Source: a virus
Lineage: Duplodnaviria; Heunggongvirae; Uroviricota; Caudoviricetes
Reading direction: 5' to 3' (one strand)
Virus record (IMG/VR): IMGVR_UViG_2778261540_000003
DNA: 64,000 bases
The notes beneath the pieces were generated by a model. The model saw only the letters and a list, made by a program, of their open reading frames with translations, was not told the origin of the DNA and made no database searches. Position numbers and translations under genes: made by a program. Of this stretch, positions 2,979 through 5,347 are shown piece after piece. Each line of letters begins with the position of its first letter. Positions within the stretch are counted from its first letter, which is position 1.

Positions 2979-4349
2979 GTGCTAATGTCTGCATCCCCTC
3001 TTGAATCCATGCCAAATTCCCTTAGTGCAGAACAAGCTGTACTTGGTGGCTTAATGCTTGATAACTGCCGCTGGGATGAAGTTGCAGATCGTATAGTTGC
3101 TGATGATTTTTATACCAGTGCTCATCGTGAAATTTTCAGTGAGATGGAGAGGTTATTAAGTCATGGCAAACCGATTGATTTGATAACACTTGCTGAAGCA
3201 CTTGAACAGAACGGTAAATTAGAACGCGCCGGTGGTTTTGCGTACCTTGCGGAGATGTCAAAGAACACGCCCAGCGCGGCAAATATTTGTGCTTATGCGG
3301 ATATCGTTCGTGAACGCGCGGTTGTTCGTGAAATGATTTCCGTCGCAAATGAAATAGCCGAAGCTGGATATGCGCAGGATGGCAGGGGCAGCAATGAATT
3401 GCTAGATATGGCCGAGCGCCGCGTTTTTGAAATAGCTGAAAAACGACAAAAGAGCGGTAGTGGTCCAAAAGATATCGCCAGCATTCTCGATGCAACGGTA
3501 TCTCGCATAGAAGAGTTGTTTCAGCGACCACATGATGGTGTAACGGGGCTTGATACGGGATTTACCGATCTCAATAAGAAGACGGCAGGGCTTCAGCCGT
3601 CCGATCTCATCATTGTCGCCGCCCGCCCATCTATGGGGAAGACCACGTTTGCGATGAATCTCGTCGAAAATGCCGCAGTTCGTAACGATAAGCCCGTATT
3701 GGTTTTTAGCCTTGAGATGCCGAGCCACCAGCTGATGATGCGCTCACTGGCTTCTCTTGCACGCGTTGATCAGACTCGTATTCGGACAGGGCAACTTAAC
3801 GACGAGGATTGGGCGCGGGTTTCTGGCGCAATGGGTATTCTGTTGGACAAGCAGAATATTTTTATTGATGACTCAAGCGCCCTGACACCTACAGAGCTTC
3901 GTTCCCGCGCTCGTCGTGTTTATAAAGAAAATGGTGGTTTGAGCATGATTATGATCGACTACCTGCAACTTATGCGCGTCCCCGAGCTGCAAGATAACCG
4001 AACGCTGGAAATTGCCGAGATTTCTCGCTCACTGAAGGCGTTGGCGAAGGAATTACAAGTACCGGTGGTGGCATTGTCACAACTTAATCGATCGCTTGAA
4101 CAGCGTGCGGACAAACGACCGGTAAATTCAGATTTACGTGAATCAGGAGCAATTGAGCAGGACGCAGACCTGATCATGTTTCTGTATCGCGACGAAGTTT
4201 ATCACCCGGATAGCGAAATGAAGGGCATTGCCGAGGTAATTATCGGAAAGCAACGAAATGGCCCAATTGGCACGGTGAGATTGGCTTTTAACGGCCAATA
4301 CTCACGGTTTGATAACTATGCTGGTGCTGACTGGCAAGAGGATTATTAA
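2979..4349 (+). CDS. ban: DnaB-family replicative helicase (P1 Ban)
   Basis: 456 aa; Walker A ARPSMGKTTFAMN, DnaB-like N-terminal domain, arginine finger region; sits directly after the tRNA cluster as in P1. Confidence 0.92.
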   Translation: MLMSASPLESMPNSLSAEQAVLGGLMLDNCRWDEVADRIVADDFYTSAHREIFSEMERLLSHGKPIDLITLAEALEQNGKLERAGGFAYLAEMSKNTPSAANICAYADIVRERAVVREMISVANEIAEAGYAQDGRGSNELLDMAERRVFEIAEKRQKSGSGPKDIASILDATVSRIEELFQRPHDGVTGLDTGFTDLNKKTAGLQPSDLIIVAARPSMGKTTFAMNLVENAAVRNDKPVLVFSLEMPSHQLMMRSLASLARVDQTRIRTGQLNDEDWARVSGAMGILLDKQNIFIDDSSALTPTELRSRARRVYKENGGLSMIMIDYLQLMRVPELQDNRTLEIAEISRSLKALAKELQVPVVALSQLNRSLEQRADKRPVNSDLRESGAIEQDADLIMFLYRDEVYHPDSEMKGIAEVIIGKQRNGPIGTVRLAFNGQYSRFDNYAGADWQEDY

Positions 4350-5347
4350 TGCAATGGAATGAGGAAAAGCCGATGAACATCCTGATCATTGGGCGAAAAT
4401 TTGAAGCTATCAGTGATGTGAAAACATATACGGAAATGTGGGCTTATAACCTGGCCTGCGCCTTTAGTGAGGCAGGGGTAACATTGCAATACCATCGTCC
4501 ATATTCCCCTGGCGTCGAAAGCCCGGAGGATTATGTTGAAGCTGTGTTGACTGCTGCGACCGCATGTTCTGCGAAGGCCATTTTGGCACCAGGATTGAGG
4601 TATTTTACTACGGTACCCAGGGAAATAGGCATGCAACTGTGTCGCCGATTCTCTGGATGGGTAGCCCAGGTATATGACGGTTCTATGCTGGATTCGGCAC
4701 CAGTCGATATTACTTTTACTGTCCGCGATGATACCTGGCGGTACCTGGATAATCCCGGCAGGTTAGAGCGTCATAATCGTTTTAACAAACATGTTGGATG
4801 GGCAGCGAATCAGGAGCTGTTCCATCTGGAAACCAAAACAGACGATATTCTGCGTATTTTTGTAGACCACGCTGCATTTGATGTTAGTGGTTTTGATCAC
4901 TCCTTAAGTATCCTTATGAACCTTCAGCGTCTGACCGTTCCGTATGAGGCCAGAACGTTGACTGATGACGGATTGGTTACCATTGATCCGGGGAATATTT
5001 CGGTAACTCCATACAGGCGGACGCCGGTGCCAGCAACCGAATTTGCAGCTGAATTGCGTAAGAGTGACGTTTTTATCGTTACGCATCCCGAAAGCCTTGG
5101 ATTAACTGTTCTTGAGGCGGCAATGTGTGGAGCGTTGATATTAACTCCGCCCGATTGCCTTCCGCCGGATCGCCTGGAGTTGGTGAACCATATGGTTATC
5201 AAGTCGCGGATTGATTGGGATGAGGTTATTGCTCGCGTTGATCGCGTGAAAAATGCTGAAAAGGTCCAGTGTCACACCTGGTCGGCAATTGCGGAAAAGA
5301 TGCTTGAGACGTTTATCACGCAGAAACCGTCGCGCGGTAACGGATAA
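4349..5347 (+). CDS. GT-B glycosyltransferase-like protein (position of P1 dbn)
   Basis: 332 aa; start overlaps ban stop (ATGA); C-terminal motif ESLGLTVLEAAMCGALIL resembles the GT4 sugar-donor binding motif. Confidence 0.65.
   Translation: MQWNEEKPMNILIIGRKFEAISDVKTYTEMWAYNLACAFSEAGVTLQYHRPYSPGVESPEDYVEAVLTAATACSAKAILAPGLRYFTTVPREIGMQLCRRFSGWVAQVYDGSMLDSAPVDITFTVRDDTWRYLDNPGRLERHNRFNKHVGWAANQELFHLETKTDDILRIFVDHAAFDVSGFDHSLSILMNLQRLTVPYEARTLTDDGLVTIDPGNISVTPYRRTPVPATEFAAELRKSDVFIVTHPESLGLTVLEAAMCGALILTPPDCLPPDRLELVNHMVIKSRIDWDEVIARVDRVKNAEKVQCHTWSAIAEKMLETFITQKPSRGNG

What the first reader, a model, noticed from the sequence alone, without database searches (positions are those of the whole stretch)
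4349..5347. Glycosyltransferase-like protein translationally coupled to the Ban helicase
The ORF immediately after ban overlaps its stop codon (ATGA) and carries a motif (ESLGLTVLEAAMCGALIL) that resembles the GT-B family 4 donor-binding signature. A glycosyltransferase co-expressed with the replicative helicase is unexpected and could point to DNA or protein glycosylation linked to replication or antirestriction.
Basis: inference. Interest (0 to 1): 0.4.

Follow-up and report, generated by a model that had tools for sequence, protein, structure and literature searches.

The report
Phage P1 dbn, a putative glycosyltransferase
The gene after the P1 helicase gene ban is the known gene dbn, long annotated as a possible glycosyltransferase; across other phages it travels with other sugar-transferase genes rather than with a helicase, so a role in DNA replication or DNA glycosylation is unlikely.

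Summary
The window is a phage P1 genome, and the ORF at 4349-5347 is P1 dbn.

The glycosyltransferase reading holds:
- The AlphaFold model (pLDDT 88) has a GT-B fold, and its best solved-structure matches are GT4 enzymes.
- dbn is intact in 82/82 P1-like loci, with pN/pS 0.12.

Corrections:
- The overlap with ban is TAATG (1 nt), not ATGA.
- The conserved protein starts at Met9 (ATG 4373).
- Eight P1-like loci carry an extra ORF between ban and dbn.

The replication or antirestriction idea is not supported. A DnaB gene lies upstream of dbn in 1 of 20 lineages. In 13 lineages the next gene, or in one lineage the next but one, is a homologue of P1 PmgQ, which has a GT8-like fold. These cassettes often also hold PmgO/PmgP-like (MptE/sialyltransferase-like) genes and sugar-tailoring enzymes. 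Some are embedded in capsid or tail gene modules. Bacterial homologues sit in capsule loci.

Dbn is most likely one enzyme of a dispersed four-transferase glycan-building set in P1. The acceptor is unknown. Interest is low to moderate.

The parts
2979..4349 (+). ban, DnaB-type replicative helicase. Upstream neighbour only; not a functional part of the glycosyltransferase set.
   Evidence: Pfam DnaB_C 5e-108 and DnaB 2.7e-35. Annotated ban in P1.
4349..5347 (+). dbn, longest ORF (332 aa). Predicted GT-B, GT4-like glycosyltransferase.
   Evidence: identity to P1 dbn. (GT-B fold). (intact in 82/82 loci, pN/pS 0.12).
4373..4375 (+). ATG of Met9, the conserved start of the Dbn family. Preceded by GAGGA at 4361-4365.
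   Evidence: Homologues start at this position. Upstream sequence is replaced in 8 P1-like loci. Sequence read.
4338..4351 (+). GAGGA (4338-4342), then TAATG, the ban stop (4347-4349) overlapping the first ATG (4349-4351) by one base.
   Evidence: Conserved in 73 of 81 P1-like loci, of which 2 read TGATG.
4865..4870 (+). Codons of D173-H174. These are family-invariant and lie at the start of the C-terminal domain, where classical GT4 enzymes carry the phosphate-binding G-R.
   Evidence: Invariant in alignment A2 and A6. The comparison with GT4 rests on my own knowledge.
5090..5143 (+). It holds the E248-x7-E256 pair (5090-5092 and 5114-5116) and G261.
   Evidence: E248, E256 and G261 are invariant in 49 homologues of 21-56% identity. 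This is the region matched by Pfam Glycos_transf_1.
5368..5394 (.). Hairpin with an 11-bp stem between the convergent genes dbn and gene 5. Likely a two-way terminator that ends the ban-dbn transcript.
   Evidence: Fold -17.7 kcal/mol, z -3.67.
5394..10145 (-). Baseplate and tail gene block (P1 genes 5, 6, 24, 7, 25, 26). It lies between dbn and the pmg late operon.
11282..11944 (+). pmgO, an MptE-like / sialyltransferase-like putative glycosyltransferase. Partner gene in other phages.
   Evidence: Pfam MptE-like 5.7e-5, below cut-off. PHROG 4603 'alpha-2,3-sialyltransferase' 4e-74. Homologues lie next to dbn homologues.
11842..12468 (+). pmgP, a paralogue of pmgO (MptE-like).
   Evidence: hhalign against capsule-locus MptE/WaaZ-like proteins gives 95% probability.
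13139..13840 (+). pmgQ, a GT8-like GT-A glycosyltransferase. In most other phages it is the gene directly downstream of dbn.
   Evidence: PHROG 1962 'glycosyltransferase' 2.5e-128. Invariant DLDT and HGxP(R/K)P motifs. AF2 pLDDT 94. Foldseek top hits are the Skp1 alpha-galactosyltransferase 6mw5, glycogenin, GlyE and LgtC. Synteny.

Best explanation
Dbn is a soluble, two-domain (GT-B) sugar transferase of the GT4-like, probably retaining, type. It uses the conserved E248-x7-E256 region of its C-terminal domain to bind a nucleotide sugar supplied by the host.

Dbn does not work with the Ban helicase. It is one of four P1 glycosyltransferases:
- Dbn
- PmgQ, with a GT8-like GT-A fold
- PmgO and PmgP, two MptE/sialyl- or Kdo-transferase-like paralogues

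In other phages these four are encoded side by side as a cassette (pmgO-pmgP-dbn-pmgQ) and together build an oligosaccharide. In P1 the cassette is split. dbn sits at the end of the C1-repressed ban operon, and pmgO, pmgP and pmgQ sit in the late pmgL operon. The two parts flank the baseplate and tail gene block.

What is shown:
- gene identity
- GT-B fold and conserved motif
- purifying selection
- the conserved dbn-pmgQ (+pmgO/P) linkage
- the lineage-specific nature of the ban-dbn linkage

What is inferred:
- Catalytic activity and donor.
- Joint action of the four enzymes.
- The acceptor. My best guess is a virion structural protein (about 0.4), because the cassette is inserted after the major capsid gene in one lineage and between the tail sheath and tail tube genes in another. 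Next comes a cell-envelope glycan such as LPS core or a capsule-like polymer (about 0.3). DNA is about 0.05.
For: P7 names it glt, and RefSeq names it 'glycosyltransferase family 4 protein'.

Fold:
- AF2 model with pLDDT 88.4.
- PDB Foldseek top hits are all GT-B, mostly GT4.
- The BFVD top hit is a Tupanvirus glycosyltransferase, 2e-17, TM 0.76-0.80.

Motif and selection:
- W151, D173, H174, E248, E256 and G261 are invariant in 49 diverse homologues.
- pN/pS is 0.12 and the gene is intact in 82/82 loci.

Partners:
- A PmgQ homologue lies directly downstream of the Dbn homologue (one gene removed in L098) in 13 of 20 lineages clustered at 70% identity. Stop and start codons often overlap.
- PmgO/P-like genes are in the same cassette in L004, L005, L105, L106, the L109 group, and the cultured E. 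coli phage EP_H11.
- PmgQ has a GT8-like fold with a DxD motif.
- Cluster sizes of Dbn (2431) and PmgQ (2479) in P1-like genomes are nearly equal.

Glycan context:
- Relatives' cassettes carry pyruvyl-, methyl- and sulfotransferases, a PIG-L deacetylase, a cytidylyltransferase and NeuB.
- Bacterial homologues of 42-43% identity lie in Kps-type capsule loci next to a WaaZ-like protein.

Structural-module embedding:
- L105: portal, protease, major capsid protein, then the cassette.
- L139/L110: tail sheath, cassette, tail tube, chaperone, then a 629-771-aa ORF with no Pfam assignment where a tape measure would sit.
- P1: dbn and the late pmg operon flank genes 5-26.
Against: - No biochemical or genetic evidence exists for any activity.
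- dbn, pmgO, pmgP and pmgQ are all dispensable for plaque formation in a CRISPRi screen (PMC10695390).
- Pfam Glycos_transf_1 is below its gathering score, and NCBIfam gives nothing.
- No K or R is invariant where GT4 enzymes bind the donor diphosphate. D173-H174 occupies that place, so donor chemistry may differ from classical GT4.
- In P1, dbn and the pmg genes lie in operons with different timing (early, C1-controlled, versus late), which is odd for enzymes that act together.
- Near-atomic cryo-EM papers on the P1 tail (3.3 A) and capsid do not mention glycans. This argues against conspicuous glycosylation of sheath, tube or capsid.
- Gene neighbourhood is suggestive, not proof, of the acceptor.
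Confidence: 0.6

Rival explanations
1. Dbn is coupled to the replicative helicase and glycosylates DNA, or a replication or antirestriction protein, protecting P1 from restriction.
For: - dbn follows ban with a 1-nt stop/start overlap and no intervening terminator.
- Phage DNA glycosyltransferases can have a GT-B fold. The DNA-modifying glycosyltransferase of phage HY126 (9iqz) is among the structural matches at 1e-7.
- In the large T4-like relatives the cassette lies a few kb from UvsX/RecA-like and DEAD-helicase genes.
Against: - A DnaB gene lies upstream of dbn in only 1 of 20 lineages.
- Eight P1-like loci have a replaced ban-dbn junction, and in the one examined (L082) an ORF is inserted between ban and dbn.
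- The conserved start, Met9, does not overlap ban.
- The conserved partners are a GT8-like enzyme, sialyl/Kdo-transferase-like enzymes, O-methyl-, pyruvyl- and sulfotransferases, and a deacetylase. This is the toolkit of polysaccharide or glycoprotein glycans.
- Homologues occur in bacterial capsule loci.
- The HY126 match is no better than matches to dozens of unrelated GT4 enzymes.
- From my own knowledge, not tested here: P1 DNA carries ordinary bases plus Dmt methylation, is cut by common restriction enzymes, and P1 encodes no pyrimidine hydroxymethylase or hydroxylase to provide an acceptor.
- No PADLOC hit.
Confidence: 0.05
2. Same four-enzyme set, but the acceptor is a host envelope glycan. 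The set would remodel the LPS core (P1's own receptor) or make a capsule-like polymer during lytic growth or lysogeny. This would block superinfection or stop progeny from being lost on cell debris.
For: - Homologues of 42-43% identity are serotype-region genes of Kps-type capsule loci, next to a WaaZ (Kdo III transferase)-like protein.
- The GT4 + GT8 + WaaZ-like combination mirrors the enzyme classes that build the enterobacterial LPS core (my own knowledge).
- P1 adsorbs to the LPS core (my own knowledge).
- In pelagimyophages, GT8-rich gene sets were interpreted as host-surface modifiers (PMC7029224).
- LPS-core enzymes need no dedicated exporter, so the lack of transport genes in P1 is not a problem.
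Against: - In two independent lineages the cassette is inserted inside virion structural modules: after the major capsid gene, and between the sheath and tube genes.
- In P1 the partner genes are driven by a late promoter together with morphogenetic genes.
- No membrane-spanning or flippase component is linked in any phage locus examined.
Confidence: 0.3
3. Dbn is a GT-B fold protein that is not a glycosyltransferase (for example an epimerase-like or phosphotransferase-like enzyme), or is an inactive relic.
For: - Pfam score is below cut-off.
- UDP-GlcNAc 2-epimerases also appear among the fold matches.
- The phosphate-binding basic residues of GT4 are not conserved, and a D-H pair is invariant instead.
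- The gene is non-essential.
Against: - The E-x7-E region fits the GT4 consensus closely and is invariant over 21-56% identity.
- Best structural matches are transferases, with epimerases several orders of magnitude weaker in E-value.
- Purifying selection is strong.
- The gene is always found among other glycosyltransferases.
Confidence: 0.05

Closest known systems
CAZy family GT4 retaining GT-B glycosyltransferases (PimA/PimB', GlgM, BshA, sucrose-phosphate synthase, WaaB- or WaaG-type LPS enzymes)
   Same: Two Rossmann-like domains with a C-terminal helix crossing back. The E-x7-E motif lies in the C-terminal domain. Best structural matches come from this family. Pfam Glycos_transf_1 is the only family hit.
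   Different: About 10-14% identity to any solved member. The Pfam score is below cut-off. The protein is shorter (324 aa), with a compact N-domain that matches no Pfam N-terminal GT4 model. The conserved phosphate-binding Arg/Lys are absent, and an invariant D173-H174 sits there instead. Donor, acceptor and stereochemistry are untested.
Virion-glycosylating glycosyltransferases of mycobacteriophages (Che8 and relatives; Freeman et al. 2023, as cited in PMC12619734 and PMC11256854)
   Same: Phage-encoded sets of soluble glycosyltransferases, with methyltransferases in some relatives, that are dispensable for growth. In two Dbn lineages the genes sit inside capsid or tail modules.
   Different: No sequence relationship was shown. 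No glycan has been reported on P1 virions. The host is Gram-negative. The Che8-type genes lie near the genome end, not in the structural module.
Phage DNA glycosyltransferases (T4 alpha- and beta-glucosyltransferases; arabinosyl-5-hydroxycytosine glycosyltransferase of phage HY126, PDB 9iqz)
   Same: GT-B fold and phage-encoded. 9iqz is a structural match at 1e-7.
   Different: The match is no closer than to generic GT4 enzymes. None of the base-hydroxylating or sugar-activating genes that accompany those systems (PMC13326640) is linked to dbn. The partners are polysaccharide-type enzymes.
Serotype-specific (region 2) glycosyltransferases of Kps/ABC-transporter capsule loci, paired with WaaZ-like Kdo-transferase homologues
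   Same: True homologues of Dbn at 42-43% identity over the full length. They are paired with an MptE/WaaZ-like protein, as Dbn is with PmgO/PmgP.
   Different: These bacterial genes are themselves uncharacterised. They lie beside export genes (Poly_export/KpsD-like in both loci; KpsM, T, C, S in L096). P1 has no such export genes and no capsule is known for P1 hosts.

Membership tests
GT4-like GT-B glycosyltransferase | GT-B fold: two Rossmann-like domains, with a C-terminal helix returning to the N-domain. | tested here: met
   AF2 pLDDT 88.4, pTM 0.85. Foldseek PDB top hits are GT-B/GT4 with E down to 5e-10. BFVD glycosyltransferases down to 2e-17.
GT4-like GT-B glycosyltransferase | E-x7-E motif in the C-terminal domain. 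| tested here: met
   E248 and E256 are invariant in 49 homologues of 21-56% identity. The surrounding T-H-x-E-S-x-G...E-A...G is nearly invariant.
GT4-like GT-B glycosyltransferase | Scores above the curated threshold of Pfam Glycos_transf_1 (PF00534) or a related model. | tested here: not met
   23.9 bits against a cut-off of 26.4. Glyco_trans_1_2 and Glyco_trans_1_4 are also below cut-off. NCBIfam gives no hit. The database's precomputed table does list PF00534 for the cluster representative.
GT4-like GT-B glycosyltransferase | Conserved basic residues (Arg/Lys after the first strand of the C-domain) that bind the donor diphosphate. | tested here: inconclusive
   No K or R is invariant in alignment A2. 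D173-H174 is invariant at the corresponding place. No residue-level structural superposition was possible with the tools.
GT4-like GT-B glycosyltransferase | Transfers a sugar from a nucleotide sugar with retention of configuration. | not testable with these tools
   Needs enzyme assays.
Phage DNA glycosylation system | Genome encodes a pathway that makes a hydroxylated or hydroxymethylated pyrimidine as acceptor, linked to the transferase. | not tested
   No such gene appears among the neighbours of dbn or its homologues in any locus examined. The whole window was not scanned. Absence from P1 rests on my own knowledge.
Phage DNA glycosylation system | Conserved linkage to replication or nucleotide-metabolism genes. 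| tested here: not met
   A DnaB gene lies upstream in 1 of 20 lineages. PmgQ lies downstream in 13 of 20.
Phage virion glycosylation system | Glycans covalently attached to capsid or tail proteins, dependent on the phage transferases. | not testable with these tools
   Only indirect evidence: the cassette is embedded after the major capsid gene and between the sheath and tube genes. The P1 cryo-EM papers mention no glycans.
Anti-phage defence or counter-defence gene | Match to a known defence-system protein model. | tested here: not met
   No PADLOC hit for Dbn, PmgQ, PmgO or PmgP.

The most novel reading that the evidence does not exclude
P1 and many unrelated phages carry a conserved, previously unrecognised four-enzyme cassette: PmgO and PmgP (sialyl/Kdo-transferase-like), Dbn (GT4-like) and PmgQ (GT8-like). 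The carriers include a cultured E. coli phage (EP_H11), high-GC myoviruses, lambda-like phages and large T4-like aquatic phages. On this reading the cassette decorates virion proteins with an acidic, ulosonic-acid-containing glycan. That would be the first virion glycosylation system in a classical phage of a Gram-negative host. It would also give the P1 'pmg' genes of unknown role a function.
Probability: 0.3. Interest if true: 0.7.

Novelty: already known. Interest (0 to 1): 0.3.

Why it matters
As stated, the finding adds nothing. P1 dbn has been labelled a possible glycosyltransferase for two decades, and its position behind ban is a quirk of one lineage.

The useful outcome is a redirection. 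The comparative data tie dbn to pmgQ, pmgO and pmgP, three P1 genes so far called 'putative morphogenetic'. They predict that this model phage makes a glycan with four transferases. If that glycan sits on the virion or on the host LPS, it would bear on three things:
- phage immunogenicity and stability
- receptor masking
- the meaning of similar gene sets in many environmental phages

P1 and phage EP_H11 are easy to manipulate, so the question can be tested directly.

Tried and rejected
- Sequence-profile search of all PDB chains gave only marginal hits: the KtrA Rossmann domain, and PimA at E about 1. It did not help.
- NCBIfam and PADLOC gave no hits for Dbn, PmgQ, PmgO or PmgP.
- The genome-contig scan returned only two loci, both P1-like sequences, because the derived patterns were too specific. 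The first viral-contig scan was swamped by P1-like contigs. It was repeated with an alignment of distant members.
- The afdb50 fold library was unavailable.
- The P1 genome paper (PMC523184) and Freeman et al. 2023 (PMC10527164) are not held. Statements about them rest on GenBank notes or on secondary citations.
- I looked for P1 homologues of the two other conserved cassette proteins of relatives: X, about 190 aa, upstream of dbn; and Y, about 231 aa, downstream of pmgQ. Neither has a homologue in the window.
- I considered a TagF-like glycerophosphotransferase reading, because of the invariant D-H pair and the cytidylyltransferase in some cassettes. No TagF-type structure was among the top matches, so I did not adopt it.
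- I searched the literature for P1 virion glycosylation or characterisation of dbn/pmgO/P/Q. Only CRISPRi non-essentiality and a transcriptome mention turned up.
- The simple terminator scan missed the hairpin after dbn. Folding the region showed it.
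Full report
**What the window is.**
The 2.6 kb around the finding is 100% identical to three P1-type phage records and 98.8% identical to reference P1 (AF234172 / NC_005856). In those records the helicase gene is ban. The ORF in question is dbn ('downstream of ban'), with the GenBank note 'function unknown, possible glycosyltransferase'. Phage P7 calls it glt, 'putative glycosyltransferase'. RefSeq and NCBI name the protein cluster 'glycosyltransferase family 4 protein'. Both the object and its suggested activity are therefore already on record.

**Checking the observation.**
- The ORF runs 4349-5347 (+) and encodes 332 aa. It directly follows ban, 2979-4349, which scores DnaB_C 5e-108.
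- The motif ESLGLTVLEAAMCGALIL is at residues 248-265 (nt 5090-5143).
- The ban stop (TAA, 4347-4349) and the first ATG (4349-4351) share one base, giving TAATG.
- A second ATG at 4373 (Met9, MNILIIG) is where the conserved protein starts. Almost all of about 150 listed homologues begin M-K/N-I-L-x-x-G at residue 1.
- In 8 P1-like contigs (of the group L081-L089) the DNA upstream of that ATG is unrelated and has its own AAGGAG. In L082, the one examined, a 101-aa ORF is inserted between ban and dbn.
- Both ATGs have a GAGGA at suitable spacing, so in this phage either may be used. Residues 1-9 are modelled with low confidence.
- No terminator-like site separates ban from dbn. An 11-bp hairpin (5368-5394, -17.7 kcal/mol, z -3.7) lies between dbn and the convergent baseplate gene 5.
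- The gene is clearly under selection. It is intact in 82 of 82 P1-like loci, with 53 distinct alleles and a median pN/pS of 0.12.

**Is it a glycosyltransferase?**
- Pfam gives only Glycos_transf_1, over residues 229-315, at 23.9 bits. That is just under the 26.4-bit cut-off.
- PHROGs places it in family 2518, 'unknown function'. NCBIfam and PADLOC give nothing.
- An AlphaFold2 model built on 17 homologues is confident (pLDDT 88.4, pTM 0.85). It shows two Rossmann-like domains with a C-terminal helix.
- Foldseek against the PDB returns 100 matches at E <= 0.001. Of the 50 best listed, nearly all are GT-B glycosyltransferases, most from family GT4: GlgM 5e-10, sucrose-phosphate synthase, PimB', BshA, LPS and adhesin glycosyltransferases. 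UDP-GlcNAc 2-epimerases are weaker.
- Against predicted viral structures the best match is a Tupanvirus glycosyltransferase (2e-17, TM 0.76-0.80).
- An exhaustive profile search found 372 representatives (127 at E <= 1e-30), mostly 300-340 aa.
- In an alignment of 49 of them (21-56% identity to Dbn) the invariant residues are W151, D173, H174, E248, E256 and G261.
- One departure from classical GT4: no Lys or Arg is invariant where those enzymes hold the donor diphosphate. A D-H pair is invariant there instead. The donor-binding chemistry may differ.

**Is it linked to the helicase?**
I collected genomic contexts for Dbn homologues from metagenomes, viral contigs and cultured phages. One search clustered the Dbn proteins at 70% identity into 19 lineages. 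The cultured phage EP_H11 (48% identical to P1 Dbn) was added afterwards as a 20th without being re-clustered. The results:
- A DnaB gene lies upstream only in the P1 lineage itself.
- In 13 lineages the next gene, or in L098 the next but one, is a homologue of P1 PmgQ. Stop and start codons commonly overlap. These lineages are L004, L005, L092, L093/L101, L094, L097, L098, L102/103, L104, L105, L106, the L109 group, and the cultured E. coli phage EP_H11.
- Several of these lineages also carry one or two homologues of P1 PmgO/PmgP in the same cassette. In EP_H11 the order is pmgO-like, pmgP-like, dbn, pmgQ, all contiguous.
- In a distant P1-like Citrobacter plasmid-prophage (L003), dbn lies about 5 kb downstream of pmgP-pmgQ on the same strand, with no helicase nearby.
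- The ban-dbn adjacency is therefore a rearrangement peculiar to P1, and it is not even uniform within P1-like phages.

**What the partners are.**
- PmgQ (window 13139-13840) belongs to PHROG 1962, 'glycosyltransferase'.
- PmgQ has invariant D79-L-D81-T and H208-G-x-P-(R/K)-P motifs. It is modelled with pLDDT 94.
- PmgQ matches GT8-type or GT8-like GT-A enzymes: glycogenin, GlyE, LgtC and the Skp1 alpha-galactosyltransferase.
- PmgO (11282-11944) and PmgP (11842-12468) are paralogues with weak Pfam MptE-like hits. PmgO falls in PHROG 4603, 'alpha-2,3-sialyltransferase'.
- The PmgO/PmgP profile aligns with the MptE/WaaZ-like proteins of capsule loci at 95% probability. One of those proteins hits the WaaZ Kdo-III-transferase model at 3.5e-12.
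- P1 thus encodes four predicted glycosyltransferases. All four are dispensable in a CRISPRi screen (PMC10695390).
- In P1 they are split. dbn ends the C1-controlled ban operon. pmgO, pmgP and pmgQ lie in the operon headed by the late promoter LPpmgL. The two units flank the baseplate and tail genes 5-6-24-7-25-26.

**What the cassette is likely to act on.**
The relatives' cassettes contain enzymes typical of elaborated glycans:
- a polysaccharide pyruvyl transferase, GT8- and GT47-like proteins, a cytidylyltransferase-cupin fusion and methyltransferases
- NeuB/CMP-sugar synthetase, GT2s, an epimerase, GlmS, UDP-glucose dehydrogenase and phosphomannomutase, in a 305-kb contig

In bacteria, Dbn homologues of 42-43% identity sit in Kps-type capsule loci next to a WaaZ-like protein. 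These loci carry a Poly_export (KpsD-like) gene, and L096 also has KpsM/T/C/S. All this points to a carbohydrate or glycoprotein product rather than modified DNA.

Two phage lineages give a more specific hint:
- In L105 the cassette, followed by a TylF O-methyltransferase, a PIG-L deacetylase and a sulfotransferase, comes directly after portal, protease and major capsid protein.
- In the L139/L110 group the cassette, with an FkbM methyltransferase, is inserted between the tail sheath gene and the tail tube, chaperone and a 629-771-aa ORF with no Pfam assignment where a tape measure would sit.

Together with the P1 arrangement around the baseplate genes, this favours glycosylation of virion proteins. 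Such glycosylation is known for mycobacteriophages (as cited in PMC12619734 and PMC11256854).

Evidence against this reading:
- Cryo-EM studies of the P1 tail (3.3 A) and capsid report no glycans.
- The literature search found no report of glycosylated P1 virions.

The main alternative is remodelling of a host envelope glycan, such as the LPS core (P1's receptor) or a capsule-like polymer. The bacterial homologues support it, as does the interpretation of GT8-rich islands in pelagimyophages (PMC7029224). I put the virion acceptor at about 0.4, the envelope acceptor at about 0.3, and DNA at about 0.05.

**Comparison with known systems and verdict.**
Dbn works like a GT4 enzyme and passes the fold and motif tests. 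It fails the curated Pfam threshold and lacks the conserved basic residues. It is best described as a divergent, uncharacterised GT-B subfamily related to GT4. It is the already annotated P1 gene dbn, so the finding itself is 'already known'. The proposed connection to replication or antirestriction is not supported.

The analysis adds one thing: the conserved dbn-pmgQ (+pmgO/pmgP) cassette, and its occasional placement inside structural gene modules. This turns four orphan P1 genes into a testable glycosylation hypothesis.

Noticed in passing
window 11282-13840 (pmgO, pmgP, pmgQ): Three P1 'putative morphogenetic' genes are predicted glycosyltransferases: two MptE/sialyltransferase-like paralogues and one GT8-like enzyme with a DxD motif. 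With dbn they form a contiguous cassette in other phages, including the cultured E. coli phage EP_H11.
   Followed up: yes
window 1551-2595: Upstream of ban, this P1 variant carries a 78-aa hydrophobic ORF and an SPFH/Band-7 protein (Pfam 1e-30). Reference P1 has the TerB-like tciA/tciB/tciC genes at that place. This appears to be a swapped accessory module.
   Followed up: partly
window 665-818 and 2623-2698: Three tRNA genes: Asn(GTT), Thr(TGT), and a CAT-anticodon tRNA. P1 annotates the last as tRNA-Ile2, while ARAGORN calls it Met.
   Followed up: partly
L082 7699-8004 (and, by the shared junction sequence, the other P1-like loci of the L081-L089 group): In 8 P1-like loci the sequence just upstream of dbn's Met9 ATG is replaced. 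In L082, the one examined, a 101-aa ORF with no Pfam match lies between ban and dbn, and ban appears split into an N-domain ORF and a C-domain ORF.
   Followed up: partly
window 10540-11118 (pmgM): PmgM gives a weak VRR-NUC nuclease-domain hit (E 3e-4, just below cut-off). It may be a nuclease rather than a morphogenetic protein.
   Followed up: no
L006 5713-6702 (Colwellia capsule locus; same in L007, L008): The Dbn homologue is split into a 63-aa N-terminal fragment and a 233-aa C-terminal ORF, and this is seen on 15 contigs. It is either a stable truncation or pseudogene, or a two-piece enzyme.
   Followed up: no
L105 5282-10518: A high-GC phage carries, right after its major capsid gene, a glycan-tailoring set: MptE-like protein, Dbn, a 421-aa PmgQ fusion, TylF O-methyltransferase, PIG-L deacetylase and sulfotransferase. 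This suggests a methylated or sulfated glycan made by a phage.
   Followed up: partly
L092-L094, L097, L098, L101-L103: Large T4-like aquatic phages share two further conserved proteins of unknown fold around dbn-pmgQ. X is about 190 aa and lies upstream, with a 4-nt overlap. Y is about 231 aa and lies downstream, and in L093 it is fused to PmgQ. X also occurs in the lambda-like L004. Neither has a homologue in P1.
   Followed up: partly
L095 and L099 (same metagenome, 305-kb and 37-kb contigs): Up to two Dbn paralogues are embedded in large sugar-metabolism islands (NeuB/CMP-synthetase, GT2s, epimerase, GlmS, UDP-glucose dehydrogenase, PMM, Lon protease). These are possibly jumbo phages or giant viruses.
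   Followed up: no
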